Below, piece after piece: positions 196-38,612 of a DNA stretch of 43,485 bases (position 1 is its first letter; each line of letters opens with the position of its first letter). The notes under the pieces were generated by a model. The model was not told where the DNA came from. It saw only the letters and a list, made by a program, of their open reading frames with translations, and made no database searches. This DNA comes from Asterionella formosa (taxonomy: Eukaryota): the NCBI GenBank assembly GCA_002256025.1, contig NKIB01014434.1, forward strand, positions 1 to 43,485, in the 5' to 3' direction. Made by a program: the position numbers and the translations under genes.

Positions 196-781
196 TAATG
201 TGCAAGAGTATTTTTGTTCAGAACTTTGGAACTTGGCGCGATTAATGAAGACAAGCAACAAGGAGGCCGATTGTTGATGCAGGAGGTATCCCTCTGATTC
301 TGTCTGCTATGAAGAAGCATCCAAACAATGCTAATGTGCAATACTATGGTTGTGCTGCACTTATGAACTCGGCTGACAATATTGAAAGAAGATGAATCTT
401 GCTGAAGCAGGAGGTACCACTGAGATTCTGTCTGCTGTGAAGAAACATCCAAACAATGCTTGTGTACAAGAATATGGTTGTCCAGCGCTTTGCACCTTGT
501 TGGCTGAAAAAAATGAAGAAAACAAGGCGACAATTGCTGAAGAAGAAAGTATCTCTGTGACTTTGTCTGTCATGAAGAAACATCCAAACAATGCCAATGT
601 ACAAGAATATGGTTGTGCCGCAATTGGTACCTTGGCTGACAATATTGAAGAAAATAAGGTGCTAATTGCCAATGCTGATTGAAAAGTCAAAATTGAGTCT
701 GCTATGCGAAACCACTCATCCAATGCTGATGTGAAAGCAAAAGCTGAAAGAGCCCTTCAAAAATTGAACCATGAGAATTGA
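196..781 (+). pseudogene. 3' fragment of an ARM-repeat paralogue (KKHPNN-type units), frameshifted
   Basis: Translates to ILSAVKKHPNNACVQEYGCPALCTLLAE and LSVMKKHPNNANVQEYGCAAIGTLAD, then a family C-cap (IANAD*KVKIESAMRNHSSN) with indels and an internal stop. Confidence 0.85.
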
Positions 782-3168: not shown

Positions 3169-3476
3169 GGGGCACGACCACCCTTTACTGGGTTATGTAT
3201 AAGAGTTCGTATTTCTCAAGCTGTCATTTTTTCAGTCATGAAACGTGTTCATAGAGGATCCGTTGGATACATTTGTGTGTAACAAGGATATAAATGCATG
3301 AGTACATAAATAAAATCATACCGAATGGTACATACATGCATGATGGAGAAAAGTTTTTGTGTGACTGAAATAATTCAGAGATATTGCATGTAGCTACGAA
3401 CAGTAAGAGACAAAAAATGCTTTTTCCTTCCGCGTGCGATAAAACAACCAAAGCAATCAACGAGAACAAAGCATAC

Positions 3477-6400
3477 ATGACACTCAATCCTTCATACACC
3501 CCTAACCACCATGATGCTTCAATAGTGTCTGACGATGCCGTACAAGTTGAGCTCATCAAGAATGGACTCTGTCCTTATCATCCAGACATTCAGCTTCGCA
3601 ACAAGAAATGGAATGGAGGTTGGAAGACTTTGCGAGAGAGCTGCCCTAGATGCGATCACGAACGAATGAATACCCAAGGGCCTCCTGCTCTAACGACTGC
3701 AATGCCTCAGCAGCATCCTTCGCCAGAAACACAATCTCGGCCTTCAAACCAATTACCAACCACTTCAATTTCGTCTACGATTGCTGAAATTCTGTCAGAG
3801 ATGCAAAAGAATGAGCAGAATGCTGACATTCAAAAAGAAAGTTGTGTAGCTCTTTGGAGCTTGGCTGACAATAATGACAACGACAGGGTGGCGATTGCTG
3901 CAGGAGGTATCACTATGATTCTGTCTGCAATGAGGACTCATTCCTCCAACGCTGATGTGCAAGAGTATGGTTGTGCAGCACTATGGAACTTGGCTTATGA
4001 TGAAAACAACAAGGTGACAATTGCTGAAGCAGGAGGGATTGCTTTGATTCTGTCTACTATGGCTAATCATTCTTCCAATAAAAATGTGCAATACTATGGC
4101 TGCGCTGCACTTATGAACTTGGCTGTGAACGACAATAACCATGTGGCAATTGAGGCAGCAGTAGGCGTCACTACGATTCTGTCTGCAATGAAGACTCATT
4201 CCTCTAATGCTAATGTACAACACTATGGTTGTGCAGCACTTAAAAACTTGGCTGAGAAAAATGACGACAATCAAGTGACGATTGATGAAGCAGAAGGCAT
4301 CACTTTGATTCTGTCTGCGATGAAGAATCATTTCTCGAATGATAATGTGCAACACTACGGTTGTGCAGCACTTTGGAAGTTAGCTGCAAATAATACCAAC
4401 AATAAGGTGACGATTGCTGAAGCAGGAATTATCACTACGATTCTGTCTACGATGAAGAATTATTCCTCCAATGATGATGTTCAACACTATGGTTGTGCAG
4501 CACTTATGAACTTGGCTGAGAAGAATGACAACAATCAAGTGACGATTGCTGAAGCAGAAGGCATCACAACGATTTTATTTGCAATGAATAATCATTCCTC
4601 CAATGCTAATGTACAATACTATGGTTCTGGAGCACTTTGGAAATTGGCTGTTTTTAATGAAAAGAACAAGTTGAAGATTGCTGAAGAAGGAGGTATCACT
4701 ACAATTCTGTCTATTATGGATAATCATTCTACCAATGCTACTGTGCAAGAAAATTGTTTTAGAGCACTTACCAACTTGGCTGCGAATAATGAAAAAAACA
4801 AGATGACGATAACGGAAGCAGGAGGAATCACTACAATTCTGTCTGTGATGAAGACTCATTCCTCCAATGCTACTGTGCAGGAAAATGGTTGTTTAGCACT
4901 TAAAAACTTGGCTGAGAATAATGACAACAATCAAGTGATGCTTTGTGAAGCAGAACTCATCACTACGATTCTGTCTTCGATGAAGACTCATTACTTCAAT
5001 GCTACTGTGCAAGAAAATGGTTGTGGAGCACTACTTAACATGGCTGTGAATGACAACAACAAGGTGACGATTGCTGCAGCAGGAGGTATCCTTACAATTC
5101 TCTTTGTGATGAAGACTCATTCCTCCAATGCTATTGTGCAATGCTGTGGTTGCGGAGCACTTATGAACTTAGCTGAGAATGAAAACAACAAGGTGACGAT
5201 TGCTGAAGCAGAAGGTATTGCTTTGATTCTGTCTACTATGGCTAATCATTCTTCCAATAAAAATGTGCAATACTATGGTTGCGGAGCACTTATGAACTTG
5301 GCTGAGAATGACAACAACAAAGTCTTGATTGCTGAAGCAGGAGGTATCACTTTGATTCTGTCTGCAATGACGACTGATTCCTCCAATGCTAATGTGCAAT
5401 TCTATGGTTGCGGAGCACTTAAAAACTTGGCTGAGAATAATAAGAACAATCAAGTGACAATTGATGAAGCAGGAGGTATCAGAACGATTCTGTCTGGTAT
5501 GGATAATCATTCATCTAATGTTGATGTGCAAAAAAAACGGTTGTTTAGCACTTTGGAACTTGGCTTATAATGAAAACAACAAGGTGACGATTGCTGAAGC
5601 AGGAGGCATCACTACGATTCTGTCTGCGATGAATAACCATTCCTCGAATGCTTATGTTCAACAATATGGTTGTTTAGTAATTCAGAACTTGACTCGGAAT
5701 AAGAATAACAGGATGGTGATTGCTGCAGCAGGAGGGATCACTTCGATTCTGTCTACTATGAAAAACCATTCAAATAATGCTGACGTGCAATTCTTTAGTT
5801 GTGCAGCTCTTCGTAACTTAGCTTATGATAACAGCAACAAGTTGGCAATTGCCAAAGCTGGTGGAATAGAAGCAATTCAGGCTGCGATTCAAAATCATGC
5901 ATCCATTGTTTGCATTCAAGAAAGAGGTAATGCAGCACTTCGCATTTTGACTTCAACCCAAATTTCAACAACTACAATTTCGTCTCCAATTGCTGCGATT
6001 CTTTCAAAAATGCAAGAGAATGAACAGCATGCTGACATTCAAGACGATTGTCTCATGGTACTTGCGGACATGGCTTCTACTAACGAAAAAAACCAGGTGA
6101 CAATTGCTGAAGTAGGAGGGATCACTACGATTCTTTCTGTGATGAAGAATCATTTATCGAATGCTGATGTACAACTCTCTGGTTGTGTAGCACTTCAGAA
6201 CTTGGCTGTAAATAATGACAACAACAAGGTGGCGATTGCTGAAGCAAAAGGTATCACTACAATTTTGTCTGCCATGGAGACTCATTCCTCCAATGTTCAT
6301 GTACAACACTACGGTTGTGCAGCACTTAATAACTTGGCTGTGAATGATAACAATGAGGTGACAATCGCTGCAGCAGGGGGTATCACTAAGATTCTGTTTG

Positions 6401-7923
6401 CGATGAATAACCATTTTTCTAATGCTCACGTGCAACACTATGGTTGTGCAGCACTTCGAAACTTGGCTGTTAATGAAAACAACAAGGTGATAATTGCTGA
6501 AGCAGGAGGTATCACTACAATTCTGTCTGCAATGAGGACTCATTCCTCCAATGCTGAGTTGCAAGAGTATGGTTGTTTAGCACTTTGGAACTTGGCCATG
6601 AATGAAAACAACAAGTTGACGATTGCTGGAGCAGGAGGTATTGCTTTGATTCTGTCTACTATGGCTAATCATTCTTCCAATAAAAATGTGCAATACTATG
6701 GTTGCATTGCACTTATGAACTTGGCTGTAAATGACAACAACCATGTCACAATTGAGGCAGCAGTAGGTGTCACTACGATTCTGGGTGCGATGATGACTCA
6801 TTCCTCCAATGCTAATGTACAATACTACGGTTGTGTAGCACTTATGAACTTGGCTGAGAAGAATGACAACAATCAAGTGACGATTGCTGAAGGCATCACA
6901 ACGATTCTGTCTGCAATGAATAATCATTCCTCCAATGCTAATGTACAATGCTATGGTTGTGGAGCACTTTGGAAGTTGGCTGTTTTTAATGAAAAGAATA
7001 AGTTGAAGATCGCTGAAGCAGGAGGTATCACTACAATTCTGTCTAGTATGGATAATCATTCTTTAAATGCTTCTGTGCAAGAAAATGGTTGTGGAGCACT
7101 TACCAACTTGGCAGTGAATGACAACAACAAGATGGCGATTGCTGAAGCAGGAGGTGTCTTTACGATTTTGTCTGCAATGAATAATCATTCCTCCAATGCT
7201 GATGGGCAAGAGTGTGGTTGTGCAGCACTTTGGAACTTGGTCGTGAATGAAGAAAACAAGGTGACGATTGCTGAAGCAGGAGGAATCACCACGATTCTGT
7301 CTGCAATGAATAATCATCCCTTTATTGCTAATTTGCAATACTATGGTTGCGGAGCTCTTTTCAACTTGGCTGTCAATGACAACAATGAGGTCACAATTGC
7401 TGCCGAAGGAGGAATTATTACAATTCTATCTGCAATGAATAATCATTTTTCGAATGCTTTTGTGCAACACTATGGTTGTGCAGCACTTCGAAACTTGGCT
7501 GCAAATGACAACAACAAGGTGACAATTGCTAAAGCAGGAGGTATCACTGCAATTCTGTCTACTATGAATAATCATTCATCCAATGCTGATGTGCAACACT
7601 TTGGCTGTGGAGCGCTTTGGGACTTGTCTATTAATAATGATAACAATAGGGTGACGATTGCTGAAGCAGGAGGTATTGCTACAATTCTATGTGCGATGGA
7701 GACTCATTCCTTCAATGCTAATGTGCAACAAAAAGGTTGTGCTGCACTTGGCACCTTGGCTTTAAATAGTAGCAACAAGGTGTCGATTGCCAATGCTGGT
7801 GGAGAAGCCACAATTGAATCTGCTATTCGAAATCACCCGTCCAATGTTGCTGTCTATGAAATCGCTCATCAAGCACTTCGAATATTGACTGTTGTGGGAA
7901 ATGATCATTATGGTATTTTGTAA
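3477..7923 (+). CDS. ARM-repeat protein 1: putative Zn-binding N-terminal motif plus two capped solenoids (~17 + ~15 units), ~1481 aa if the extra A in the A8 run at 5530-5537 is removed
   Basis: ORFs 3384-5570 and 5461-7923 join into a normal unit (VQKNGCLALWNLA) on deleting one A. ATG 3477 is the start shared with the paralogues (an in-frame ATG at 3417 is an alternative). Consensus ITTILSAMxxHSSNANVQxxGCxALxNLAxNxNNKVTIAEAGG. Confidence 0.85.
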
Positions 7924-10571: not shown

Positions 10572-10917
10572 GGTTCAATAATTCAGTAGAAATACAGCAG
10601 CAGCTGGCAGCATGACAAACAGCACGCCAAGGCACAATAGCAACTCATGATTTATGGAGCCCTGTTATCATATGACATTAACACAGAATCAGAAAGCAAC
10701 AATAGTCAATCCTGGATTTCATCCGAATGCTCCTGAATTGAAAGGGTTCAATAATTCAGTAGAAATACAGCAGCAGCTGGCAGCATGACAAACAGCACGC
10801 CAAGGTACAATAACAACTCATGATTTACGGAGCCCTGTTATCACATGACATTAACACAGAATCAAAAAGCAACAATACTCAATCCTGGATTTCATCCGAA
10901 TGCTCCTGAATTGAAAG
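10572..10917. repeat. Tandem duplication, 173 bp x2
   Basis: GGTTCAATAATTCAGTAGAAATACAGCAGCAGCTGG starts at 10572 and 10745, with few mismatches between copies. Confidence 0.95.
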
Positions 10918-11668
10918 GGGTTGCTGCAATGTTAATTGAATCCTCGACTCAAATAAAAGAACTCTGCAATACAGTTGAATGGTGAGTGTGTTTTTGTTGT
11001 GTATCTGAATGCTAGTATGGCTTGTCAGCTCACGCATTGTTGTTGATAACAGGCAGGGACAATGAGGTCCGGAATGAAAGTTGTTCTGGTAAGATTACTG
11101 CGCTATTTTGATGGCTATATGAGCAACAACACTACTGATAACTCACACTGATCTTCCTCTACATTCATTTGACATTGCAGCAAACCCTTTTAGTGCAGGA
11201 GCATGAGCAGGCTTTATTTTATTCATGAAACTCTTTAATTTAGTTGAATTACCTGCAGTAAAATAGTTGAACAACCTTCAGAAAAATAGTGGATTTGCCT
11301 TCAGATAATTAGTTGAACAACCTTGTGATAATTAGTTGAATGAACTCCAGAAAATTACGGAAACAAATTTTACATATTAAGTGAACTTTATTCTAGAATT
11401 ATGGGAACGAAATTATAAGGCAATGTGAACTAAAATTACATAATTACGTGAAGTATTTCAAATATAATTACGTGAAGGTGATGACGTAATATAGTGATGA
11501 TCAGGAATGCATGCATGATACTTTGATCAAATATTTAACGTGATGTATTCAGATAATATATATATTCAACTACGTATTTTGATGTATTCAACTTAATCAT
11601 GTGATGCATTCAAAATCAACTAGGCTTATTTATGTGATGGTCACTTCACGTAATACACGGCTTAGATG

Positions 11669-11963
11669 AGGCAATGGGGAGAATACTGAACCTAATGTTG
11701 TAATTAGCGCTATCGAACGGTACCACATAAAAGAGAAGAAGTGATCACATATAATATCCAACACAACTTGTTGGATGGGAAAAACTCGACATATTCCAGA
11801 CAAGGATTACCCACTCAAGGATGACCAAAATGCACGCTGGTCCAACAGGCCGCTAGTACCAGGCGCCTGCATGTCAGAAGACAGACCTCGCAGGACTACA
11901 CCTAACTGTTTTCCCCGTTGAGCGTGCGCTCGTGATACCCTGAGGTAAACTCAGAATTTACCA
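11669..11963 (-). mobile_element. Truncated solo LTR of the Copia family at 15677-33568
   Basis: Aligns to ~33274-33568 (GGGGAGAATACTGAACCTAATGTTG...CAGAATTTACCA). About 30 bp are missing at its left end, where the DNA element abuts. Confidence 0.9.
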
Positions 11964-12303: not shown

Positions 12304-15300
12304 ATGACACTCAATCCTTCATTCGCCCCTACCAACAACGATGCTCCAATAGTGTCTGACAGTGCCATACAAGTTGAGTTCATCAGGAATGGACTATGTC
12401 CTTATCATCCAGACATTCAGCTTCGCAAAAAGAAATGGAATGGAGTTTGGAAGATTTTGCGAGAGAGCTGCCCTAGATGCGATCAAAAACAAATGAATAC
12501 CCGAGGGCCTCCTGCTCTAACGACTCCAATGCCTCAGCAGCATCTTTCGCCAGAAACAAAATCTCAGCCTTCAACACAAATTGAAACCACTGCAATTTCG
12601 TCTACGATTGCTGAAATTCTGTCAGAGATGCAAAAGAATGAGCAGAATGCTGACATTCAAAAAGAAAGTTGTGTAGCACTTTGGAAATTGGCTGACAATA
12701 ATGAAAACGACAGGGTGACGATTGCTGCTGCAGGAGGTATCACTATGATTCTGTCTGCTATGAGGACTCATTCCTCCAACGCTGATGTGCAAGAGTATGG
12801 TTGTGCAGCACTATGGAACTTGGCTTATAATGAAAACAACAAGGTGACAATTGCTGAAGCAGGAGGGATTGCTTTGATTCTGTCTACAATGGATAATCAT
12901 TCTTCCAATGATAATTTGCAATACTATAGTTGTGCATCAATTTGGAAATTAGCTGCGAATAATGCCAAAAACAAGGGGACGATTGCTGGAGCAGGAGGTA
13001 TCACTACGATTCTGTCTGCGATGAAGACTCATTCCTCCAATGCTACTGTGCAATACTGTGGTTGTGGAGCACTTAGTAAATTGGCTAAAAATAATGACAA
13101 CAACAAGGTGACGATTGTCGAAGCAGGAGGTATCACTTTGATTCTGTCTGCGATGAAGAATCATTTATCAAATGTTCATGTACAACACTACGGTTGTGCT
13201 GCACTTTGGATTTTAGCTGCGAAAAATGAAAACAACAGGGTGTTGATTTCTGAAGTAGGAGGTATCACTACTATTCTGTCTGCGATGAAGACTCATTCTT
13301 CCAATGATACTGTACAACACTATGGTTGTGCAGCACTTTTGAACTTGGCTGAGAAAAATGACAACAATCAAGTGACGATTGCTGAAGCAGAAGGCATCAC
13401 AACGATTTTATCTGCAATGAATAATCATTCCTCCAATGCTAATGTACAACACTACGGTTGTGCAGCACTTAATAACTTGGCTGTGAATGATAACAATGAG
13501 GTGACAATCGCTGCAGCAGGGGGTATCACTAAGATTCTGTTTGCGATGAATAACCATTTTTCTAATGCTCATGTGCAACACTATGGTTGTGCAGCACTTC
13601 AAAACTTGGCTTATAATGAAAACAACAAGGTGACGATTGCTGAAGCAGGAGGTATCACTACGATTCTGTCTGCGATGAACAATCATTTATCGAATCTTAA
13701 TGTTCAACAATATGGTTGTTTAGCATTTCAGAACTTGGCTCAGAATGACAACTACAGGGTGGTAATCGCTGCAGCAGGAGGGATCATTTCGATCCTGTCT
13801 GCTATGAAAAATCATTCATATAATGCTGACGTGCAATACTATGGTTGTACAGCTCTTCGTAACTTGGCTTATAATAACCACAACAAGGTGGCAATTGCCA
13901 TAGCTGGTGGAATCGACGCAATTCAGGCTGCGATTCAAAATCATGCATCCAATGTTCGTGTTCAAGAAGGAGGAAATGGAGCACTTCTCATATTGACTCA
14001 AACCCAAATTTCAACCACTTCAATTTCGTCTCCGATTGCTGCGATTCTTTCAAAAATGCAAGAGAATGAGCAGCATGCTGCCATTCAAAGAAAGTGTCTC
14101 ATTAAACTTGCAGAAATGGCTTTTACTAATGAAAACTACCAAGAGACGATTGCTGCAGTAGGAGGTGTCACTGCGATTCTGTCTACTATGGATAATCATT
14201 CATCCAATGCTGATGTGCAAGAAAACGGTTGTGTAGCACTTCAGAACTTGGCTATAAATAATGACAACAACAAGGTGGCAATTGCTAAAGCAAAAGGTAT
14301 CACTACAATTCTATCAGCGATGAAAAATCATTTGTCCAATGCTAATGTGCAATACTATGGTTGTGGAGCACTTCTAACCTTTGCTGTGAATGACAAAATT
14401 GAGGTAACAATTGCTGCATCAGGAGGTATCACTGCAATTCTGTCTGCTATGAGTAATCATTCATCAAATGCTATGGTACAACACTATGGTTGTGCAGCAC
14501 TTCGGAACTTGGCTGTGAATGACAACAACAAGGTGGCGATTGCTGAAGCAGGAGGTATCACTACGATTTTGTCTGCGATGAAGACTCATTATTGCAATGC
14601 TGACATACAAGAATATGGTTGTGGAGCATTTTTTAACTTGGCTGTGAATGAAAACAACAAGGGGATGATTGCTGAAGCAGCAGGTATCACTTTGATACTG
14701 TCTGCGATGAATATTCATTCCTCTAATGCTAATGTGCAATACTATGGTTGCGGAGCACTTATGAACTTGGCTGAGAATGACAACAGCAAGGTGTTGATTG
14801 CTGAAACAGGAGGTATCACATTGATTCTTTCTGCAATGAAGAATCATTTATCAAATGCTAATGTGCAACACCATGGTTTTGCAGCACTTCGGAACTTGGC
14901 TGTGAATGACAACAATGAGGTGACAAGTGATTCAGCAGGAGCTATCACAACGATCTTGTCCACGATGGATAATCATTCATCCAATGCTGATGTGCAACAC
15001 TATTGTTGTGGACTACTTTGGAACTTGGCTTATAAAAATAAAAATGACAAGGTGGCAATTGCTGAATCAGGAGGTATCACTAAAATTTTGTCTGGGATGA
15101 AGAGACATCCTAAACATGCTAAGGTGCAACAATATGGTTGTGGAGCACTTGGGAACTTGGCTTTTAATAATGACAACAATAAGGTGACGATTGTTGAAGC
15201 AGAAGGTATCAGTCAGATTCTGTTGGCGATGAAGACTCATTCATCCAATGCCAATGTGCAACAATTCGGTTTTAGAGCACTCCGGAATTTGGCTAATGAT

Positions 15301-15570
15301 AATGACAACCACAGGGTGAGGATTGTTGAAGCAGGAGGTATCACTGTGATTCTATCTGCAATGGAGACTCATTCCTCCAATGCTAATGTGCAACATAATG
15401 GTTGTGCAGCACTTGGCACCTTGGCTACCAATAATGAAAACAGAGTGGCGATTGCCAATGCCGGTGGAAAGGTCACAATTGAGTCTGCTATTCGAAATCA
15501 CCCATCCAATGCTGTCGTCTATGAAAAAGCCCATGAAGCACTTCGCATATTGACCCAAATTGGGAAATGA
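12304..15570 (+). CDS. ARM-repeat protein 2 (intact, 1088 aa): putative Zn-binding motif plus two capped solenoids (~11 + ~12 units)
   Basis: Uninterrupted ORF. The first ATG is 12304 (the track start 12226 is TTG) and is homologous to ATG 3477. Same architecture as gene 1. Confidence 0.92.
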   Translation: MTLNPSFAPTNNDAPIVSDSAIQVEFIRNGLCPYHPDIQLRKKKWNGVWKILRESCPRCDQKQMNTRGPPALTTPMPQQHLSPETKSQPSTQIETTAISSTIAEILSEMQKNEQNADIQKESCVALWKLADNNENDRVTIAAAGGITMILSAMRTHSSNADVQEYGCAALWNLAYNENNKVTIAEAGGIALILSTMDNHSSNDNLQYYSCASIWKLAANNAKNKGTIAGAGGITTILSAMKTHSSNATVQYCGCGALSKLAKNNDNNKVTIVEAGGITLILSAMKNHLSNVHVQHYGCAALWILAAKNENNRVLISEVGGITTILSAMKTHSSNDTVQHYGCAALLNLAEKNDNNQVTIAEAEGITTILSAMNNHSSNANVQHYGCAALNNLAVNDNNEVTIAAAGGITKILFAMNNHFSNAHVQHYGCAALQNLAYNENNKVTIAEAGGITTILSAMNNHLSNLNVQQYGCLAFQNLAQNDNYRVVIAAAGGIISILSAMKNHSYNADVQYYGCTALRNLAYNNHNKVAIAIAGGIDAIQAAIQNHASNVRVQEGGNGALLILTQTQISTTSISSPIAAILSKMQENEQHAAIQRKCLIKLAEMAFTNENYQETIAAVGGVTAILSTMDNHSSNADVQENGCVALQNLAINNDNNKVAIAKAKGITTILSAMKNHLSNANVQYYGCGALLTFAVNDKIEVTIAASGGITAILSAMSNHSSNAMVQHYGCAALRNLAVNDNNKVAIAEAGGITTILSAMKTHYCNADIQEYGCGAFFNLAVNENNKGMIAEAAGITLILSAMNIHSSNANVQYYGCGALMNLAENDNSKVLIAETGGITLILSAMKNHLSNANVQHHGFAALRNLAVNDNNEVTSDSAGAITTILSTMDNHSSNADVQHYCCGLLWNLAYKNKNDKVAIAESGGITKILSGMKRHPKHAKVQQYGCGALGNLAFNNDNNKVTIVEAEGISQILLAMKTHSSNANVQQFGFRALRNLANDNDNHRVRIVEAGGITVILSAMETHSSNANVQHNGCAALGTLATNNENRVAIANAGGKVTIESAIRNHPSNAVVYEKAHEALRILTQIGK

Positions 15571-15676: not shown

Positions 15677-15897
15677 TGTACATACGACTAATTCTCCTAT
15701 CAAACAGGCAACGGGGAGAATACTGAACCTAATGTTGTAATTAGCGCTATTGAAGGGTACCACATAAAAAAGAAGAAGTGATCACAGAGCATTATCCAAC
15801 ACAACTTGTTGGATGGGAAAACTCGACATATTCCAGACAAGGATTACCCACTCAAGGATGATCAAAATGCACGCTGGTCCTACAGGCGGTAGGACCA
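15677..15897 (-). repeat. 3' LTR, left part (continues at 20069-20161)
   Basis: Matches ~33244-33463 and is interrupted at ...GGACCA by the TIR element. Confidence 0.9.
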
Positions 15898-18800
15898 CGT
15901 CTGCAAATAAAAACCATCATATTTCCATGATGCATCATGGGATTATGATCATCTGATCATAATTTTTCTTTATATCATCTAATAATTATGATAACCCTTT
16001 TGACTACCGGTATGGAAATTTAATTATTATATGTATTGTTTCTTTTAGGTTCCTTTATTTAAATTTCTCGGTAGGATAATGTACCAGTTTGAGTAATGTG
16101 GTTTGGCTCATCATCCTCGCCAGTCCTCACTCTGATTCTTGCAACAACGACAAACCAGCCTTGTCAAGAGGAACGAGTGTTTGTGATAAAATCTTCATTT
16201 GTCGTTCAAGTCCTCATATGTCTTCGATGAATCATCATCTACATTGTACAGTATGTTCGTACTACTATGCAATCTGTTAAGAGCTTGAAAAGAAATCCAA
16301 TGAAAACGAAATGGCTCATCACACAAGACGAATATTTCTGGCCGGTCTGTCACTGGAGCATTGGTCAGTGTTACAACCTCAATCATAGCTAAACAACATC
16401 CATTATAGAACAGCACAATCTAATTCTCCGTAACATTGTCTCTCTAACAAGAACGTAATACATCTAGAATTGAAACGCAGCATAGCAGGCGATATGCACA
16501 AAGAAGCATGAGACTGTCTATTTATTGTAACAGAGTGATTCTGGTTTTGTAATTTTCATGTCTCATTAGATTTTCTTTGTCATCGTTCTAGTTCCGTACC
16601 TTTAAAGACAGGAGCGTATTCTTTGATGTATCTGGATTATTTCAATGGATGGCAGCAGTTGTTATTAGGGTATTAGACACAAACCTTGACAAAAGCACTA
16701 GTACCTTGTAGATGATCATGAAAAGCGAGACACTTTGCTTGGCCTATCGCCCACCAGCCAGTCTATAACTGCAAAAATGCAAGAAGCAAGCACAAGTTGA
16801 ATACCCATTTATGGATTCAAGTTTCAGTAGTTCAACAATATAAAATATTAGAAACCGGAAGTCACATTTCATCTAATTACGGTTTTCATTAGCTATACTA
16901 GTATTGATTGAGAGGAAGCAATAGGAGAATGGCTGCCAAACGGGCGGGGGCAAACACAGAGAATCCTACAACTAATTTTTCTTCCCAATGATCCCAGTCC
17001 CTTGTTGAATGTCACTTGCTACAGAAAATGTAGAACAGCCGCCATGATCTGTTGATTGTTGCTTTATGGTGCCACTGACCGAGACCTCCAGAAATCTCAA
17101 TGAGTTGCTTGTCTCTTGACTTGAATGCAAAAGGGATCGAAACCAGCGGAAAAATCAAAAGGGAACTAAAAATGCTCTGCAAACATCAGGACAATGGTGA
17201 AATAGAAATGAAGGTTCTTGGGAGGAGAAGTAAAGGAATAATTGCTTCTGGTCTTGCGGGAACAAGAATAGATTGACCCAAAAAATGTTGACAAATAGGT
17301 ACCTACGGGAAAAGGAAGCAATGCTTTCAGCATCATCAATCTATACACAAACCTGCACCACCTGATGTCATCAATATAGCTACATCGACTTCGTCAATGA
17401 AGAAGTCAATGGGTGGAGCATGTGAGGAAAATCGGGGTTGAGGTTTTCTTGACGCCAACGTGGACCTGATTGGCTGAACTCCTTGCAGATGAAGGCATTG
17501 AGTAACCTGGGTCTGTGAAGCCAAAGGATAAAGAAAAATCTATGACAAGGGTGGTGAGATAGTGTTTAGGAAAGGGGAAGAAAAGGTTTTCATAGCTGAA
17601 CGCATTCGAAGCTTGTATAGACAATAAATGGTGGAATACCATGGCTGCTCTTGGCTGACAGCTGCCAAGTCAAGTACAAACACAACGAGGGTGCACAAAA
17701 GACAGTCCAATTTTAATTGACTGGCTGATACTTAGTTGTGAGACTCACCATTCTGCAATGGGGTGGACTTTGATCATTTCTTCGTTCAAAGCACAATCAA
17801 TTCGAATGCTGTCCAGTGAAACAGCCAATGAAAACAATTGTGGCGAAAAATCGCAGAACAGATCAAGAGATTTCATAGGAATTAAAATAACAACAGCAGG
17901 GCATATATGATGTGCTGCTCCTTGTTTCGACTAGCTATCTATGATTATTTCCATATTTCATACTACACAGGTGCATGGATGACTCCTCCCTTTCATTAGA
18001 TATGCAGCCATGTTGCGTTAATTCTACAGGACCTATAGGATTTTTAGTCTGGTGGTCATCATTTCTGCATTGTCTATACCAGTAGGAGTCACCAGCCATG
18101 TATACATGCATGCTGCGATAATTCTTTCAAGACATGAAATTTTGGTAGCTTGGGGGTTATCACTTCCATACTGTATACAGGGGGAAGGGGTTGCATGCAT
18201 GAGCAACTACTCCGGTATAAAATATGATCTTTAATCGATGATTCTTGATTCATTTATCCTATAAATTTGATCATAATATATTGATCATATGATGAACAGT
18301 GTCCTTGATGAGAAAATGAATGATCAACATTTATTTTCAAGAATCAGGATTAATTGATCTTAAAAATATGATCAAATGATCCTAAACACATGAGCATATT
18401 AAGTTTTCTGCTGCACTTTTGTGATATTTCCATGATGGAAGTAATACCCAGCAATTATACAGTACTACCGGTAGGCCACATGAATTTTGGTCAATATGAT
18501 TTCGACCATTTGAAAAATTGGTGATGACTCCAGTTTATGAAGGGGCATAATTAAATCAGCCACTGACTTGTAGGTACAAGAAATGACACAAAAAAAGTTG
18601 AAAAAACTCAACAGGTCGTGGAAAACTATGAACTCATTATGCATTTTATATATTTGAATTATGTATAATCAAATTAAAATTAGTATAAACAGGATGTGCC
18701 GTATAATGAGCGTGTTTCAAACTATGCAAATGTTCAACTATGTATACATTTAAACTTCTTACAAATCTTTATATATATGTATTCATGGCTGAAACATTTG

Positions 18801-20170: not shown

Positions 20171-20388
20171 GCCACCGTGAAACGCTCCTCCATTGCAACA
20201 TAAACGACCGGTTCTGCCAGTGATCTTCATCACTCAGTCCATTTTGGGCTGTACCATGTATTCCAATTCGCCAGCCACTGTCTCCATATTCCGTTTTGGA
20301 AAAGAACAGTAGTTATTGAACCTTGTTCTTTATCAAACATCACTGAATATCTCTCGCAAGCAATGTTACAATAGATAACAGAAACAAC

Positions 20389-22329
20389 TTAATCTAAAAC
20401 ACTCCTGGCAAAATGATAAACTGGCACTCCAGTGAGTCTTTTCGTTAAACCATCAGAGCAGTTAGCCTTACCAGAATCATGTGCAACACGCGCTGACCCA
20501 TATGCACAAGCCTCACGACACTTGTGATAAGCAATTGCATTATGCCTTTTATTCAACGTTGACTCAGGCCTAGTAACATCTCGCGTTGTCTCCAAACATA
20601 TTTGCGGCACCATCAATGGGCACTCCCATCATGTGTAAATCATTCATTTCAATAGCAATTTTCATCGCCACAAAGTCACTCCCAAAAGTTGACATTTTGA
20701 CAGTATTTTGCTGTTTGGAATACCACCTCTCAGCAACACCATTTAAGAATATCAATACCCCTGTTGTCGATCTACGGGGAGCAAGGCAAGTCGCATGTGC
20801 AGCATCACAAAAGATGTTGATTTGTACCTCTTTCCCAAGACCCTCTGGTGCACCTGTTGGAATCAACTCAACATCATCAGGGTAAAATTCTTTCCAATCA
20901 GCACCACCATGATACCAATCGACTGTATTCCAATCCCTATTTCCCTTTTACATAACCAAATATGCGGAGCACTGCCTCCATGTGTCCTTCACAAGGAGCA
21001 TTCCTAAATCTCGACATGAGCGCCACCAAATGCATCAAATCAATTCATGCTAACTCAGTCACCCATTGCAGGATTCCAATATAACTAGCTTACAAGGATG
21101 GATCATCCTCACTCAATAGGGGGCTGACATCAATCTCAGGATGGTATCCAGCTGGTAAGGGTGAGGACGCCTTTCGGCATAATTTTTGATCCCAAGCTTC
21201 CTCCTCAATAGTCAGAATAGCATTAGTGTGGTAATCCTCTGCTGACATGGACCATGCCAATGACCCATCACCAAATTGATACTGGCCAACCATTACGCCT
21301 ACATAGCGACAAGGTGCGGTTCCTGGATCTTCAACAACCTTAAGTGTAAAGTAACAAGCTAATTCCTTGACTAACTCATCAGCTGCCGCTGAAATGAGCA
21401 TAACATTGTCAACGTAGACCAATGCATATTCATAGTATGCTGAGCCATCCACTTTTGTTGCTTTCCTCAACCACAGATCTGGATCAGCCTCACAAGTATG
21501 GAAATGCATATAATCACGTAACACAGAAGCCAGATGTAACCGGAAGGCGGCACCAGCAGACTTCAGAACTTAAAGAGCACAAATGATCTTCAGCAAACAA
21601 CTTTTCAGCGGGCCAAATTCGTCCCCTGCCACAACATAAAAATGCTCTTTCACAGGCGCTGTCAAATAAGCATTCCCCCAATGTCTGTCAGCCGTAGATT
21701 TAATCCATTTTGACCGGCAACCAACAAGGCAACAATGCGAATTGTCTCCCTAGAAGCGACACTTGAATATGTGATTGCCTTTGGGGGGTCAGTCCTATGA
21801 CCTCCTGCCACATACCTAGACTTGCGCGTGAAGTCCAACTTGACATCCCAGATTATATGTCCCGGAATCTTCTTGTATCCAGGAACATGGGTTGCCTTTT
21901 CTGGCCGAACTTCAAAAGCTATCATCACTGCAGACATCTCCTTGCGGAGAGCAGCCATCCATCCAAAGTATATTAACATTTTCATGGTCCAACCTTGCTG
22001 CATCAGGAAAGCTAGAACTTGGCATTTGAACAACAATTGTAAAACTAGCTCGGTGGTATGGTCTACTCTGTGTTGCCTTGATGATTCGTTTCATGCGTTT
22101 TAAGACCATTGGAACCCACCAAAAAAAGCAGGATTGATTTCGATTTGGTTCGCTTTGGCATATTCAGCAAGTTCAATCGGATTTGTTTCCTTCAGAGTCT
22201 TTAATGGGAGCCAGGATGTAGATCCGTCCCTCCATTCGACTTCTAGATCCCACCCAGTTGTTGTCTTCTTCTTGTTATAATTTTTCCCGTTTTGCGGAAA
22301 TTATTGATCACTCTTCTCCACAGCCTTCC
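20389..22329 (-). pseudogene. Copia pol remnant (RT + RNase H)
   Basis: GYKKIPGHIIWDVKLDFTRKSRYVAGGH, YSSVASRETIRI, LTDIG, EADPDLWLR, YYEYALVYVDNVM, FCDAAHA..RRSTTG, STFGSDFVAMK and KRHNAIAYHKCRE, with frameshifts. Confidence 0.93.
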
Positions 22330-23594
22330 TGTAAAAACAATCATATTTCCGTGATGCATCATAGGATTGTGATGATCTGATAATAATTTTTTGTTATATC
22401 ATCTAATAATTTTGAGAAATGCCCTTGAAAATTAAATAGTTACCCTTTTGACTGCATACATTAAATTATTATATGTATTGTTTCTATTAGATTCCTGTGT
22501 TCGAATTTCTTGGTAGGATAATGTACCAGCTAATGTAATGTAATTTGGCTCATCATTTCCATCCTTCATCACTCCGATTTTTTCAACAACAACAAAATAC
22601 TAGCACCGACAAGTGAAACGATTGTTTGCAATAAAAACGTCTTCAATTGTTGGTCAAGCAATCATTATATCTTTGAGAAATCGTCATGTGCAGTGAACCG
22701 TTGTTCATAATCATTCAATTAAGAGTTTACAGAGAAGAAATCATTCAAGCTTGTAATGGTTCTGCACACAGCGCACATTGTGAATGTGTATGTGCACTGT
22801 CAACTTGTGTACATTTCAGGAGTGACTTAGCTACTAAAGGGCATGTTAAAATATCATACTCCATAGTACGATGCAGAATACTACAGTTCCCAATCATCTC
22901 ATCATGATTGATAAGATGATAATGTGATATCACGATAGGGTTACATCGATGCATGCATCACCAAAGTATGATAATTAATATTGAATAAAGAATATCACAT
23001 AGCTATGATGCATTGATCATAGAACTGTGATGATTTCTTAAAATGATTATGATATAATTATGATCAAAAAAAGATCATGCTAAAATAATACAATGATAAT
23101 AAAATACGATAAAATATGTACACAAGTGTTATCGATGCATCACAGAAAGTAAATGAATAAATCACAATTATGTTACTAAATTTATAAGTTCGACTTTTCA
23201 TGTATACAGTAATAGCCAACAGTTAATATGATAGTATTATACGGTGGATAGGATTTAAGTATACGGATGCATTGATATGTACCTCACAATAACATGATTT
23301 GTGATATGGATTGATGCATATCACATACCGGTATCCTCAACAACCAGCCATCACGTTCATTGTTTTGTCGTTTTTCCTTGTTATAGCTATATACCGGTAT
23401 ATGCCGGCATATTGTGTAAACACAACGCTGGCGGAAGATGCATATTACACTGTGCACTGTTCAACAATTACTACACTCGGTTACCATCACACCAGTTGCA
23501 TCTCCACAGGCGCTGCAAAAAGCTCCGCGTTTCCCTTTCACTGTTTTACATCATGGTCTTCTGTCCCTTTTGACAAAAATCCAAATGGCATTTC

Positions 23595-30568: not shown

Positions 30569-31033
30569 TTTTCAATTTTATGATCATACAATCCTGAAAC
30601 TATGATGCTTTGCGGTCCCACTGTGGTAGCAACAGTCCTGAACATATGGTGCTCTGTTGCTCACATACTACTACGACAATCCTTTTTCAATTTTATGATC
30701 ATAGGATCATGAAACTATGATGATTTAATGTCCCGCTGCGCGTGGTAACAGCAGTCATGAACATATGGTGCTCTGTTGCTCGCTTACTACTCCTACTATC
30801 CTTTTTCAATTTTATGATCATAGAATCCTGAAACTATGATGATTTAATGTCCCACTGTAGTAACAGCAGTCATGAACATATGGTGCTCTGTTGCTTGCTT
30901 ACTACTCCGACTATCCTTTTTCAATTTATGATCATGATACGATCCTAAAACTATGATGAATTACTGTCCAACTTCAGTAGCAACAGTCATGAACATATGG
31001 TGTTCTGTTGCTCGATTACTACTCTGACTATCC
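30569..31033. repeat. Minisatellite, 4 x ~115-119 bp
   Basis: Unit TTTTCAATTTTATGATCAT..GAAACTATGATG..GAACATATGGTGCTCTGTTGCT..TACTACT starts at ~30569, ~30682, ~30801 and ~30917. Confidence 0.93.
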
Positions 31034-32006: not shown

Positions 32007-32830
32007 CTGAGAAGATGCTCTGCCAATATATTGTATGCGATTTGCTGTTGCTCACCATCTAAGAATTCGACCTCAAAAACCCTGGAATCTAACCTCGGAA
32101 ACCTTTGCTTTCGCCCAACCAGGTTCCCGTTCACATCCTACTTTCGTTTAATGACCACCGCAATCATATCGCCCTCCTTGTGTGGAAGTACGACCTGAGC
32201 GTTAATGTCGGGAGTCTCACCCATCATCACTTCATATGGAGATCGACCCTTGAGTGCATGTCTACACATGAGCTGACGGATGTTGGAGGTATATTCCGCT
32301 GCAAAACACCATAGCATGTCTGGACATCTGTATCTATTCATGATACGACGCCAATGCGTCTTGAATTGTCCGATCTTGCTCTCAGCTCTGTTCATCCAGT
32401 CATCACTTCACATAGAGATCGACCCTCAAGTGCAGGTATAGACCTGAGCTGACAGATGTTGGAGGTATATTCTGCTGCAAAACACCATAGCATGCCTGGA
32501 CATCTGTATCTATTCATGATACGACCCCAATGTGTCTTGAATTTTCCGATCTCGCTCTCAGCTCTGTTCATCCAGGGATTGTGAGGCTCTGTTGTTGTGC
32601 AAGGAACCAAATGGGTCTTCTGGACTCTCTTGAACTCTGTGAAGTCTCATGTTTCCACAGCTGCATTTTCAGAGTGGAAACCTAGTTCTGGAATTCCATA
32701 TTGCCGGATGGCTTCAATGAATCTATCCCCACAATCTGCTTCAGAGCGCATTGGATACACCTTGGCCCAACACTGATCATGACAGAAAAGTTGTGCTCAT
32801 GTGCGTCCCCTCACTGACTTCACCTTGTCC
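32007..32830 (-). pseudogene. Copia integrase remnant with a 176-bp tandem duplication (32224-32399 / 32400-32575)
   Basis: KVYPMRSE, YGIPE, TEPHNPWMNRAESEI, LWCFAAEY and GRSPYEVMMGETPDI. The block MNRAES..EVM is present twice. Confidence 0.92.
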
Positions 32831-37375: not shown

Positions 37376-38612
37376 ATGGCGATTTTCAGATACGTCCTTA
37401 CCCGCCTTAATGATCCAATGACAATTATGAATGAGTATGACGTACAAGCTGAGCTCATTAAGAATGGATTCTGTCCTTATCATCCAGACATGCTGCTTCG
37501 CAAAAAGAATTTGTTTGGAGTTCGGACGACTTTGCGAGACAGCTGCCCTCGTTGCGATCATAATCGTATAAATACCAAAGGATCTACTGCCTCTTCAATT
37601 GCGTCTACGATTGCTACAACTCTTTCCGAGATGAAAATGAATGAGCTTAATGCTGACATTCAAAAAGAAGGTCTCTTGGAGCTTGCTCAATTGGCAACCA
37701 GTTGCCGATTGCTGAAGAAGGAGGTATCACTTTGATTCTATCTGCTATGAAGATTCATTCCTCCAATGCTAACGTGCAAGCATATGGTTGTGAAGCACTT
37801 AATGACTTGGCTGTGAACAAAAATAACAAGTTGACGATTGCTAAAGAAGTAGGTATCAATACGATTCTGTCTGCAATGAAGACTCATTGCTCCAATTCTG
37901 ATGTGCAAGCATATGGTTGTGCATCACTTTTGAACTTGGCTTTGCATGACAACAACCAGGTGACAATTGTTGCAGCAGGTGGTATTTTTACAATTCTGTC
38001 TGTGATGAAGATTCATTCCTCTAATGCCAATGTGCAACGCTGTGGCTGTGGAGCACTTAATAACTTGGCAGACAATCATGACAACAACAGCGTGACGATT
38101 GCTGCAGCAGGAGGAATCAATACAATTCTTTCTGTGATGGAGACTAATTCCTTCAATGCTAATGTGCAAGCATATGGTTATGCAGCACTTTTTACCTTAG
38201 CTGAGAATAATGAAAAGAGCAAGGTGATGATTGCTGCAGCAGGAGGTATCCTTACGATTCTGTCTGTGATGAAGACTCATTCCTCTAATGCTAGTGTGCA
38301 ACACTTTGGTTGTGGAGCACTTATGAACTTGGCTTTGAATAACAACAACAAGGTGGCAATTGAGGCAGCAGGAGGTATCAGTAGTACAATTTTGTCTGTA
38401 ATGAAGACTCACTCCTCCAATGCTAATGTGCAATACTATGGTTGCGGAGCACTTCAGAGCTTGGCTTTGAATAATGACAACAAAAGGTGGCAATTTCCAA
38501 TGCTGATGGAAAAGTCGCAATTGAGTCTGCTAAGCGAAATCATGCTTTCAATGCCAGTGTGCATGACAATGGTAATGGAGCACTTCGCACATTGAACCAA
38601 CATCAGAAATAG
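37376..38612 (+). pseudogene. ARM-repeat paralogue 3, single solenoid (~8 units), two frameshifts
   Basis: GFCPYHPD..CPRCD motif and N-cap, a deletion/frameshift at ~37700, six internal units, a frameshift at ~38485, then C-cap ..GALRTLNQHQK* ending at 38612. Confidence 0.88.

What the first reader, a model, noticed from the sequence alone, without database searches (positions are those of the whole stretch)
3900..7800. Variation concentrated at a few fixed helix-3 positions: possible recognition code
Seen: in VQ-x1-x2-GC-x3-AL-x4-NLA-x5 the scaffold is almost constant, while x1x2 = EY/YY/HY/EN/CC/FY/QY/LS/HF/QK, x3 = A/G/L/V/I, x4 = W/M/K/T/L/R/Q/N/F/G and x5 = Y/V/E/A/M/L. Established: helix 3 lines the ligand groove in importin-alpha and beta-catenin ARM repeats. 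Inference: per-repeat specificity residues analogous to TALE RVDs or PUF/PPR codes, making this a natural modular binder library.
Basis: partly seen in the sequence, partly recalled or inferred. Interest (0 to 1): 0.75.

Follow-up and report, generated by a model that had tools for sequence, protein, structure and literature searches.

The report
Armadillo repeats with variable groove residues
This stretch encodes a long run of near-identical armadillo repeats from a freshwater alga in which the residues that differ most between repeats sit where related proteins grip their peptide partners, so it looks like a family of custom peptide binders rather than a letter-by-letter code.

Summary
Window 3768-7905 encodes 32 armadillo (ARM) units of 43/44 aa: 28 internal and 4 caps, in two capped arrays. 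They belong to one gene, 3477-7923. Three sister loci bring the window to about 60 units.

In 53 aligned internal units, 17 of 43 columns are nearly invariant. The three most variable columns are x4, x5 and x1; x3 ranks 6th and x2 13th. The variable columns lie on one face of helix 3.

By HMMER alignment to the closest solved relative, Vac8, 14 of 15 published ligand-contact residues fall on x1-x5 or the conserved Asn.

Non-synonymous change at x3, x4 and x5 runs at 2.3-3.4 times the gene-wide synonymous rate (p <= 3e-4). Against each codon's own synonymous rate, only x3 is significant. Recombination between units blurs every tree-based test.

Best reading: a recently expanded algal ARM family whose peptide groove has diversified unit by unit. 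A TALE/PUF-like one-repeat-one-letter code and nucleic-acid binding have no support.

The parts
3477..7923 (+). Gene L1: N-terminal Cys/His module plus two capped ARM arrays. It is a single ORF of 1,481 codons if one A of the A8 run is left out.
   Evidence: ORFs 3384-5570 and 5461-7923. One letter is left out at 5530 in the contigs of runs X2, X3 (polyA RNA) and X6 (DNA), but not X1. ORF length. Pfam ARM_LRRK2 151 and 128 bits, Arm 86 and 58 bits.
5530..5537 (+). A8 homopolymer carrying a +1 frameshift in the window. It falls inside the x1-x2 codons of one unit.
   Evidence: Sequence; read-laying table 4.
3564..3656 (+). N-terminal Cys-x2-His ... Cys-x2-Cys module with no Pfam family.
   Evidence: The profile finds 271 of 1.84 billion representatives at E <= 1e-3. 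No PDB relative.
3765..3896 (+). N-cap unit of array I.
   Evidence: Unit HMM 61.6 bits with a divergent consensus. 91% identical to the L2 N-cap.
3897..5850 (+). Array I: 15 internal 43/44-aa ARM units, including the frameshifted unit 5466-5592.
5851..5979 (+). C-cap unit of array I.
5977..6105 (+). N-cap unit of array II.
   Evidence: RNA contigs 5582-6240 and 5638-6240 bridge the junction between the two arrays.
6106..7788 (+). Array II: 13 internal ARM units.
7789..7905 (+). C-cap unit of array II, followed by the stop codon at 7921-7923.
12304..15570 (+). Paralogue L2: intact, same design (module 12391-12483; 9 + 10 internal units, 4 caps).
   Evidence: 12241-13898 matches 3413-5074 at 85%.
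37376..38600 (+). Paralogue L3: module, N-cap, 6 internal units and C-cap lie in three different frames, so it is probably a decayed copy.
197..772 (+). Remnant L0: unit fragments in two frames and a C-cap with an in-frame stop.

Best explanation
The stretch is the repeat region of one member of a clustered, recently expanded family of armadillo-repeat proteins. The organism is a freshwater microalga, probably a diatom. Each protein has a small N-terminal Cys/His module followed by two capped ARM solenoids; this gene has 15 + 13 internal units.

The arrays grew by tandem duplication, and units have been exchanged between arrays and paralogues. Residues that build the three-helix fold are held by purifying selection. 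The residues on the groove face of helix 3 (x1, x2, x3, x4, x5 and column 29, around a conserved Asn) have been replaced at or above the neutral rate, often as whole codons. As a result almost every unit carries its own groove residue set.

Proposed mechanism, by analogy with Vac8, importin-alpha, beta-catenin and designed armadillo proteins: the Asn ladder hydrogen-bonds the backbone of an extended, disordered peptide lying antiparallel in the groove. The x residues of neighbouring units form the side-chain pockets. Each array is therefore a long, individually shaped peptide-binding surface.

Shown here: the repeat anatomy, the variability pattern and its helical periodicity, the correspondence with Vac8 contact residues, the excess of replacement over the gene-wide synonymous rate, and presence in polyA RNA-seq contigs.

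Inferred: the fold, the groove orientation, peptide binding, and selection as the cause.
For: - Pfam: ARM_LRRK2, Arm, ARMC5, ZER1-like and Atx10 families all score above cut-off.
- Closest solved sequence is Vac8, E 4e-30 with one protein and 2.8e-40 with a profile.
- Entropy ranking puts x4, x5 and x1 first among 43 columns in 53 units; 17 columns are nearly invariant.
- The helix-3 variability moment peaks at 100 degrees, with 0 of 10,000 shuffles as high.
- Vac8 residues named as contacting Atg13 or Vac17 map 14 of 15 onto x1-x5 or the Asn column by HMMER's alignment. The exception, K160, maps to loop column 5.
- The Asn column is Asn in 40 of 53 units.
- All 12 Trp and 54 of 62 Tyr of the internal units lie in x columns, and Arg is 4.2% there against 0.6% elsewhere.
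- 47 distinct x-quintets occur among 52 units.
- Codon model on 47 units of the two intact genes, with the synonymous rate fixed gene-wide: beta is 3.38 at x4, 3.27 at x5 and 2.33 at x3 (p 9e-8, 2e-7, 3e-4). These are the only columns above 1 after Bonferroni correction. All non-x columns pooled have omega about 0.5.
- x4 + x5 change 2.3-2.7 times faster than nine other columns that are freely variable in 86 units of distant relatives.
- In 19 disjoint nearest pairs, x3-x5 codons differ in 28 of 57 cells against 191 of 720 elsewhere (P 6e-4). Half of those (14 of 28) differ at two or more bases, against 42 of 191 elsewhere.
- The closest unit pair (97% identical) differs at three codons: one synonymous change, plus x4 and x5.
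- Unit exchange: units 6367 (array II of L1) and 13510 (array I of L2) are 97% alike.
- The gene is held near-identically in contigs of two polyA RNA libraries.
Against: - No structure model could be made, so the groove orientation rests on homology.
- With each codon's own synonymous rate, x4 (alpha 2.9, beta 3.05, p 0.93) and x5 (alpha 2.8, beta 3.0, p 0.85) are not above neutrality. Only x3 is (p 0.003).
- In 19 independent nearest pairs the x columns run at 1.2-1.3 times the synonymous rate (P 0.05-0.13).
- 56% of informative site pairs show all four gametes, so a single unit tree is a poor model and inflates counts at variable sites.
- x2 is not elevated (beta 0.9-1.1), and x1 is elevated only on the tree built without the x columns.
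- Columns outside the groove face (22, 7, 5, 16) vary as much as x3.
- Five further Vac8 contact residues in a degenerate repeat map to x columns only in an ungapped register. By HMMER's gapped alignment, 1 of 5 does.
- Two of the four loci are decayed, and the window's own copy of this gene carries a frameshift.
- The RNA evidence is from assembled contigs and does not prove transcription.
- No ligand is known.
Confidence: 0.6

Rival explanations
1. Relaxed constraint only. The x positions are solvent-exposed and free to drift, and the arrays are spacers or scaffolds, or are partly on their way to decay. The variation carries no specificity.
For: - Own-codon omega is about 1 at x4 and x5.
- Nearest-pair pN/pS is 1.2-1.3, not significant.
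- Overall omega is 0.64-0.67, high for a conserved gene.
- L0 and L3 are decayed, and L1 is frameshifted in the window.
Against: - Nine other columns that tolerate any residue in distant relatives change 2.3-2.7 times more slowly than x4 + x5 (P 5e-7 to 2e-10).
- The four scaffold codons around x4 and x5 have a synonymous rate of 0.5, so there is no local mutation hot spot.
- Drift would not place all 12 Trp and 54 of 62 Tyr in these columns.
- The Asn between them is conserved.
- x4 is the top column in all four arrays and in 25 units from other sources.
Confidence: 0.2
2. A diversifying recognition system. The family works like the repeat sensors of fungal NOD-like receptors with 'high internal conservation': units are shuffled and contact codons kept under diversifying selection, to track changing targets such as pathogen or non-self proteins.
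For: - Nearest units are 82-97% identical.
- Units are shared between arrays and paralogues.
- A few hypervariable codons sit on the predicted contact face, with replacement at 2-3 times the gene-wide synonymous rate.
- The local cluster shows birth and death of copies.
- Relatives of the array are fused to kinase, RING, U-box, PARP, caspase-like and ADP-ribosyltransferase domains, that is, it serves as a targeting module (Pfam lists).
- The features of the fungal system are described in PMC12222747 (passages read).
Against: - No NACHT or NB-ARC domain, or any effector domain, in these genes.
- Typical unit identity is about 72%, lower than the 80-100% of the fungal repeats.
- Contigs of four runs differ from the window at only 10 single bases in 4.7 kb, of which 4 change an amino acid and 1 lies in an x column. 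No unit-number variant was established.
- Positive selection is not cleanly shown.
Confidence: 0.13
3. A true one-repeat-one-letter code as in TALE, PUF or PPR proteins, possibly reading nucleic acid.
For: The architecture is modular and fixed variable positions recur in every unit. PUF proteins are also three-helix solenoids (recalled).
Against: - Pfam's PUF family was not among the matches listed for the three proteins scanned at E <= 0.01; all 19 + 13 + 15 listed families' best stretches are ARM/HEAT-type or weak chance hits.
- The conserved Asn ladder and the Vac8 mapping indicate backbone binding of peptides.
- Pockets in armadillo binders are formed by two adjacent repeats.
- 47 different quintets among 52 units is far more states than a small alphabet needs.
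Confidence: 0.04

Closest known systems
Vac8 (yeast vacuolar protein 8; PDB 5XJG, 6KBM, 7YCJ)
   Same: Best solved sequence match (E 4e-30; profile 2.8e-40). Same unit consensus around V/I-Q-x-x-a-C-x-A-L-x-N-L-A. Its partners Atg13, Nvj1 and Vac17 bind as extended loops, antiparallel in the inner groove. The Vac8 contact residues named in two papers fall on the x columns and the Asn column.
   Different: Vac8 has 12 dissimilar repeats, one array and an N-terminal H1 helix. The gene here has 28 + 4 near-identical units in two capped arrays and an unrelated N-terminal Cys/His module. Best local identity to Vac8 was not computed; homology is at family level only.
Designed armadillo repeat proteins (dArmRP; PDB 4D4E, 5MFI hit at E 2.5e-7 and 6e-6)
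   Same: Identical-scaffold internal units between special N- and C-caps. The peptide is held by conserved Asn on the concave side. Surface positions 30 and 33, and library pocket positions 29, 30 and 33 on helix 3, correspond by motif register to x2, x3 and x1. The natural arrays look like such a library: constant scaffold, varied pocket residues.
   Different: The register to dArmRP numbering is my own motif alignment (Ile27, Leu32, Trp33, conserved Asn), not a printed alignment. dArmRPs carry Trp at position 33, whereas here position x3 is small (Ala or Gly in 40 of 53) and Trp sits at x4. The natural units are 43/44 aa. Binding is unknown.
LRRK2-type ARM repeats and relatives (Pfam PF23744, ARMC5 PF24768, ZER1-like PF22964, Ataxin-10 PF09759)
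   Same: Highest Pfam scores, 128-219 bits against a cut-off of 26.2. Shared hallmark M-x2-H ... V-Q-x2-G-C-x-A-L, visible in the LRRK2 alignment. ZER1 and ZYG11B are ARM-containing substrate receptors that recognise N-terminal degrons (abstracts only).
   Different: Those proteins have few, divergent repeats joined to other domains (kinase, cullin adaptors). No such domain is present here.
Repeats with high internal conservation in fungal NOD-like receptors (HNWD genes het-d, het-e)
   Same: Tandem units kept alike by recombination, a handful of hypervariable codons that map to the interaction surface, and gain, loss and shuffling of units (PMC12222747, passages read). The pattern is comparable.
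   Different: Those are WD40 beta-propeller repeats behind a NACHT domain, 80-100% identical, with shown diversifying selection and known ligands. Here the repeats are ARM, there is no NACHT domain, unit identity is lower, and selection is not cleanly shown.
TALE RVD, PUF and PPR recognition codes
   Same: Tandem helical repeats with specificity residues at fixed positions.
   Different: Those read nucleic-acid bases one per repeat (recalled). No evidence for that here; see the fourth rival explanation.

Membership tests
Armadillo repeat (Pfam Arm PF00514, ARM clan) | Sequence match to the roughly 41-aa repeat profile above the curated cut-off | tested here: met
   Arm scores 86.5, 57.9 and 94.1 bits against a cut-off of 20.6 for the three proteins scanned.
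Armadillo repeat (Pfam Arm PF00514, ARM clan) | Three-helix units stacked into a right-handed superhelix with helix 3 lining a groove | not testable with these tools
Inferred only, from Vac8, beta-catenin and LRRK2 sequence homology and from the 100-degree periodicity of variability in columns 28-43.
Armadillo repeat (Pfam Arm PF00514, ARM clan) | Conserved Asn on helix 3 (the backbone-binding ladder of importin-alpha and beta-catenin type repeats) | tested here: met
   Asn in 40 of 53 internal units at column 40. It aligns with Vac8 N152, N193, N234, N277 and N318, which bind ligand atoms. The role of the Asn is stated in PMC4756613.
LRRK2-type ARM (Pfam PF23744) | Match above the curated cut-off | tested here: met
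   151.3, 127.5 and 218.7 bits against a cut-off of 26.2.
Peptide-groove binders of the Vac8 / importin-alpha / dArmRP kind | Ligand-contact positions coincide with the positions in question | tested here: met
   14 of 15 named Vac8 contact residues fall on x1-x5 or the Asn column by HMMER's alignment. Of five more in a degenerate repeat, 1 of 5 does so by the gapped alignment and 5 of 5 by an ungapped register.
Peptide-groove binders of the Vac8 / importin-alpha / dArmRP kind | Demonstrated binding of an extended peptide | not testable with these tools
   No partner is known, so no complex prediction was attempted.
High-internal-conservation repeat sensors (fungal NLR type) | NACHT or NB-ARC nucleotide-binding domain upstream of the repeats | tested here: not met
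   The Pfam scan of L1 and L2 lists only ARM/HEAT-type and weak chance families. The N-terminal 99 aa has no family.
High-internal-conservation repeat sensors (fungal NLR type) | Units 80-100% identical within a gene | tested here: inconclusive
   Nearest-neighbour nucleotide identity is 0.78-0.97. The array-wide TRF match is 71-77%.
High-internal-conservation repeat sensors (fungal NLR type) | Hypervariable codons under diversifying selection on the interaction surface | tested here: inconclusive
   Beta is 2.3-3.4 against the gene-wide synonymous rate at x3-x5. Against the codon's own rate, only x3 is significant. Recombination confounds the test.
TALE / PUF / PPR type code | Membership of the PUF, PPR or TALE repeat families, or any sign of nucleic-acid binding | tested here: not met
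   None of these families appears among the Pfam hits at E <= 0.01. Nucleic-acid binding itself is not testable here.

The most novel reading that the evidence does not exclude
These genes are a naturally evolved armadillo 'pocket library'. A near-consensus scaffold has units that are shuffled between arrays and paralogues. Its groove codons (x3, x4, x5, partly x1) are replaced as whole codons at 2-3 times the synonymous rate. This generates new specificities for extended peptides. It would be an ARM-based counterpart of the hypervariable repeat sensors of innate immunity, used by a microalga to recognise changing protein targets such as pathogen, non-self or degradation signals.
Probability: 0.15. 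Interest if true: 0.75.

Novelty: new variant of a known kind. Interest (0 to 1): 0.45.

Why it matters
Protein engineers have spent years building armadillo proteins with identical repeats and selected pocket residues, in order to read peptides modularly (PMC11228518, PMC4756613). A natural family with the same layout offers 47 different groove residue sets in one 43-kb window. That would give ready-made pockets to test, and a case study of how such binders evolve.

For algal biology, it points to a large, uncharacterised class of recognition proteins. Relatives are fused to kinases, ubiquitin ligases and ADP-ribosyltransferases.

If the variation turns out to be drift, this is simply a young ARM gene family.

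Two literature searches found no description of such arrays in diatoms, nor of hypervariable natural ARM repeats: 'armadillo repeat' + diatom + 'gene family expansion', and 'armadillo repeat' + 'diversifying selection' + 'tandem repeat' + hypervariable. That covers only the held library, and supplementary files were not seen.

Tried and rejected
- AlphaFold model of array II (alignment A1): the tool said it was not ready. There is therefore no model and no fold search.
- Own genome: none is held.
- Earlier findings of this scan: nothing by place, by words or by sequence.
- Orthologous loci for an allele-level test: the search for related loci in metagenome contigs gave 40 pattern matches, none a relative. 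A degenerate DNA pattern for the N-terminal motif gave 0 matches.
- Protein database: no close full-length relative. The best is 43% identity over 56% of the query. The best short fragments are 51-68% identical.
- N-terminal module: no Pfam family and no PDB relative at E <= 10. Atlas hits score below 0.9 and are bacterial hypothetical proteins, so they are leads only.
- Atlas on the whole L2 protein: ARM clusters, mostly haptophyte, with scores at or below 0.84. This is not used for taxonomy.
- First per-site fit with free synonymous rate (Nelder-Mead) did not converge and gave negative likelihood ratios. It was replaced by multi-start L-BFGS.
- Rejected: a bacterial reading of the window. 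ORFs are sparse and no genome is held.
- Rejected: the two ORFs as separate genes. RNA and DNA contigs of three runs restore one frame.
- Depth figures were not used, because repeats and contig depths make them meaningless.
- Stretches of the gene not covered by listed RNA contigs say nothing.
Full report
**What is there**

The window is sparse in ORFs, about 40% G+C, and no prokaryotic genome is held for it. Between 3768 and 7905 on the + strand there is a 129/132-nt tandem repeat (30.4 copies, 72% matches). It translates into 43/44-aa units with the consensus N-D-N-N-K-V-T-I-A-E-A-G-G-I-T-T-I-L-S-A-M-K-N-H-S-S-N-A-N-V-Q-x1-x2-G-C-x3-A-L-x4-N-L-A-x5.

A unit HMM finds 33 hits there, which make 32 units because one is split. 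They are organised as follows:
- Array I: an N-cap, 15 internal units and a C-cap.
- Array II: a second N-cap, 13 internal units and a C-cap.

The two ORFs 3384-5570 and 5461-7923 differ by one base in an A8 run at 5530-5537. In the contigs of three of four public runs laid on the stretch, one A is missing there. Those three are two polyA RNA libraries and one DNA run. The fourth, a DNA run that may be the window's own source, agrees with the window. With that A left out, the gene is a single ORF of 1,481 codons from 3477 to 7923. RNA contigs also bridge the junction between the two arrays.

The same design recurs elsewhere in the window:
- 12304-15570: intact, with 9 + 10 internal units.
- 37376-38600: the parts lie in three frames.
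- 197-772: a remnant with an in-frame stop.

The window therefore holds a small gene cluster with living and decayed copies.

All three fuller copies start with a Cys-x2-His ... Cys-x2-Cys module. It has no Pfam family and no solved relative. The only named protein with the same module in front of ARM repeats comes from the diatom Seminavis robusta. The runs that hold the gene are freshwater or lake metagenomes and an 'algae metagenome'. I therefore call the organism a freshwater microalga, probably a diatom, without more certainty.

**Family**

Pfam places the arrays in the armadillo clan. ARM_LRRK2 scores 128-219 bits (cut-off 26.2) and Arm scores 58-94 bits (cut-off 20.6). ARMC5, ZER1-like and Ataxin-10 domains also match.

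The closest solved sequence is yeast Vac8 (E 4e-30; 2.8e-40 with a profile). ODAD2/ARMC4, beta-catenin, LRRK2 and designed armadillo proteins follow.

Full-length database relatives are distant: at best 43% identity over 56% of the query. Many carry the array next to kinase, RING, U-box, PARP, caspase-like or ADP-ribosyltransferase domains.

**The observation**

I aligned 53 internal units codon by codon. Caps were left out, as were two units of the remnant locus. One unit has a two-codon deletion and one a one-codon insertion. The frameshifted unit was entered with x1 and x2 masked.

Seventeen of 43 columns have less than 0.6 bit of entropy. The ranking of the variable columns is:
- x4: 3.19 bits
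- x5: 3.01
- x1: 2.61
- column 29: 2.45
- column 22: 2.44
- x3: 2.11
- columns 7, 5 and 16: about 2.0
- x2: 1.64, in 13th place

x2 is mostly Tyr, and a few columns outside the list vary as much as x3.

x4 is the most variable column in each of the four intact arrays taken alone. It is also the most variable in 25 close-family units found in 31 unrelated database fragments.

In 86 units of more distant relatives, variation is spread over all surface columns. The concentration seen here is therefore a property of young arrays: the groove columns have moved first.

**Where the variable positions sit**

Two indirect tests were possible.

The first is periodicity. Across columns 28-43, variability has a sharp helical periodicity. 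The moment peaks at 100 degrees per residue and none of 10,000 shuffles reaches it. Columns 29, 32, 36, 39 and 43 lie within 50 degrees of one face, with columns 33 and 40 beside it.

The second is the mapping onto Vac8. Its partners bind as extended loops, antiparallel in the inner groove. Two papers name the Vac8 residues involved: PMC7469494, section 6 read in full, and PMC10161063, passages read.

Chain numbering was checked on the identity of all 20 residues. By HMMER's printed alignments the residues map as follows:
- x1: V103 and Y226
- x2: N145, N186 and Y227
- x3: A107
- x4: L192 and R317
- x5: H196
- conserved Asn column: N152, N193, N234, N277 and N318
- loop column 5: K160

That is 14 of 15 on the six helix-3 columns.

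Five more residues (E395, A398, A401, I402, L405) lie in a degenerate Vac8 repeat where HMMER opens a two-residue gap. By that alignment, only L405 falls on an x column. In an ungapped register anchored on V-Q and L-A, all five do, and their spacing fits. I report both readings.

In designed armadillo proteins the conserved Asn on the concave side binds the peptide main chain. Glu30 and Trp33 are the exposed peptide-site residues, while Ile27 and Leu32 are buried (PMC4756613, passages). Selected pockets use positions 29, 30 and 33 of helix 3 from two adjacent repeats (PMC11228518, passages).

By motif register (my alignment, not a tool's) these positions correspond to x1 = 29, x2 = 30, x3 = 33, x4 = 36, Asn = 37 and x5 = 40.

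Composition agrees with a binding surface. All 12 Trp and 54 of 62 Tyr of the internal units are in x columns, and Arg is seven times enriched there.

**Selection**

The analyses do not all agree, so each result is given.

Pairwise Nei-Gojobori over all 53 units gives pN/pS of 0.65 overall. pN relative to the mean pS is 1.95 at x4, 1.87 at x5, 1.60 at x1 and 1.44 at x3.

Parsimony counts on unit trees, for the 47 units of the two intact genes, give replacement at about 1.9-2.3 times the gene-wide synonymous rate:
- x3: 1.9-2.05
- x4: 2.07-2.32
- x5: 2.09-2.24
- all other columns: omega about 0.5

x4 + x5 change 2.3-2.7 times faster than nine other columns that vary freely in distant relatives (P 5e-7 to 2e-10).

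I also fitted a maximum-likelihood codon model (my own script; MG94-type, fixed tree, kappa 2.06, global omega 0.67). With the synonymous rate fixed gene-wide it gives:
- x4: beta 3.38 (p 9e-8)
- x5: beta 3.27 (p 2e-7)
- x3: beta 2.33 (p 3e-4)
- x1: beta 0.97
- x2: beta 0.88

No other column is above 1 after Bonferroni correction. On a tree built without the x columns the values are higher, and x1 becomes 2.56.

When each codon is given its own synonymous rate, the picture changes:
- x3 stays significant (alpha 0.48, beta 2.33, p 0.003).
- x4 does not (alpha 2.9, beta 3.05, p 0.93).
- x5 does not (alpha 2.8, beta 3.0, p 0.85).
- Pooled x3 + x4 + x5 give omega 1.8 (p 0.038), or 2.5 (p 0.001) on the second tree.
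- The four scaffold codons around x4 and x5 have alpha 0.5.

In 19 disjoint nearest-neighbour unit pairs the x columns run at 1.2-1.3 times the synonymous rate (P 0.05-0.13). In the same pairs, x3-x5 codons differ in 28 of 57 cells against 191 of 720 elsewhere (P 6e-4). Half of the changed ones (14 of 28) differ at two or more bases, against 42 of 191 elsewhere (P 0.004).

The closest pair, 97% identical, differs at three codons: one synonymous change, plus x4 and x5.

Finally, 56% of informative site pairs show all four gametes. Units therefore recombine, and any single tree overstates change at variable sites.

My reading is that the groove codons turn over as whole codons, faster than anything else in the unit. 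This fits either repeated selection or short conversion patches that are invisible on the identical scaffold. Positive selection is suggested, most cleanly at x3, but it is not proven. Between the contigs of four runs there are only 10 single-base differences in 4.7 kb. Six are synonymous and one of the four replacements is at x5, so population data say little.

**How it most likely works**

The arrays are peptide-groove binders of the Vac8, importin-alpha and beta-catenin kind. The Asn ladder holds the backbone of an extended partner segment, and the x residues of neighbouring units make the side-chain pockets. The two long capped arrays give two independent binding surfaces per protein.

Duplication and exchange of units are evident. 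Units 6367 and 13510 are 97% alike although they sit in different arrays of different genes. L1 and L2 are collinear at 85% over their first 1.7 kb. Combined with replacement of groove codons, this creates new surfaces: 47 different quintets occur among 52 units.

The stronger claim is not. There is no evidence for a per-repeat code like TALE RVDs or PUF/PPR, or for nucleic-acid binding. Pockets span two repeats, no nucleic-acid repeat family matches, and no ligand is known.

**Comparison and novelty**

By family the genes are ordinary members of the ARM clan. What is unusual is the layout: many near-identical units between caps, two arrays per protein, hypervariable groove codons and unit shuffling.

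That layout resembles two things:
- the man-made designed armadillo proteins;
- the 'high internal conservation' WD40 repeats of fungal NOD-like receptors (PMC12222747, passages).

The genes lack the NACHT domain of the fungal receptors, and their selection is less clear.

Two literature searches of the held library found no description of such ARM arrays. Supplementary files could not be seen.

I rate it a new variant of a known kind, of moderate interest.

Noticed in passing
window 3564-3656, 12391-12483, 37466-37558: A small N-terminal module, G-[LF]-C-x2-H-P ... C-P-R-C-D (Cys, His, Cys, Cys invariant in 4 of 4 aligned sequences). It has no Pfam family and no solved relative. A profile finds 271 of 1.84 billion representative proteins at E <= 1e-3. 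Of 21 of these scanned with Pfam, 3 have ARM repeats after it, 1 has a Mind-bomb SH3 domain, and 17 have no family although several carry 2-4 copies of the module.
   Followed up: partly
window 5530-5537: The A8 run carries a +1 frameshift in the window and in the DNA contigs of run X1. It is A7, restoring the frame, in the contigs of two polyA RNA runs and one DNA run from another study. This is either a strain polymorphism or a homopolymer error shared with the source data.
   Followed up: partly
window 37376-38600 and 197-772: Two decayed copies of the family. L3 has its module with N-cap, its units and its C-cap in three different frames. L0 has unit fragments in two frames and an in-frame stop in its C-cap.
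   Followed up: partly
window 11478-11963; copies at 1-195, 15685-15897, 33252-33568: A dispersed repeat of about 300-500 bp (89-95% identity) flanks the ARM genes. It may mark the segmental duplications or be part of a mobile element.
   Followed up: no
window 20300-22400, minus strand: Stop-interrupted ORFs carry strings that look, by eye and from recalled motifs, like a copia-type reverse transcriptase and RNase H. Pfam found nothing in one of two pieces scanned and only a sub-threshold Ribosomal_L15e hit (17.6 bits, cut-off 27) in the other, 21665-22036. 22332-22706 resembles 15908-16258 at 75%.
   Followed up: no
window 10572-10919, 30569-31033, 32217-32575: Three non-coding-looking tandem repeats: 173 bp x 2 at 96%, 115 bp x 4 at 86%, and 176 bp x 2 at 90%.
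   Followed up: no
window units at 4284, 4548, 6880, 12853, 12985: In five units the otherwise conserved Asn is Lys. In four of them x4 is Trp, giving the local motif A-L-W-K-L-A. This is a possible coupled variant of the backbone-binding position.
   Followed up: no
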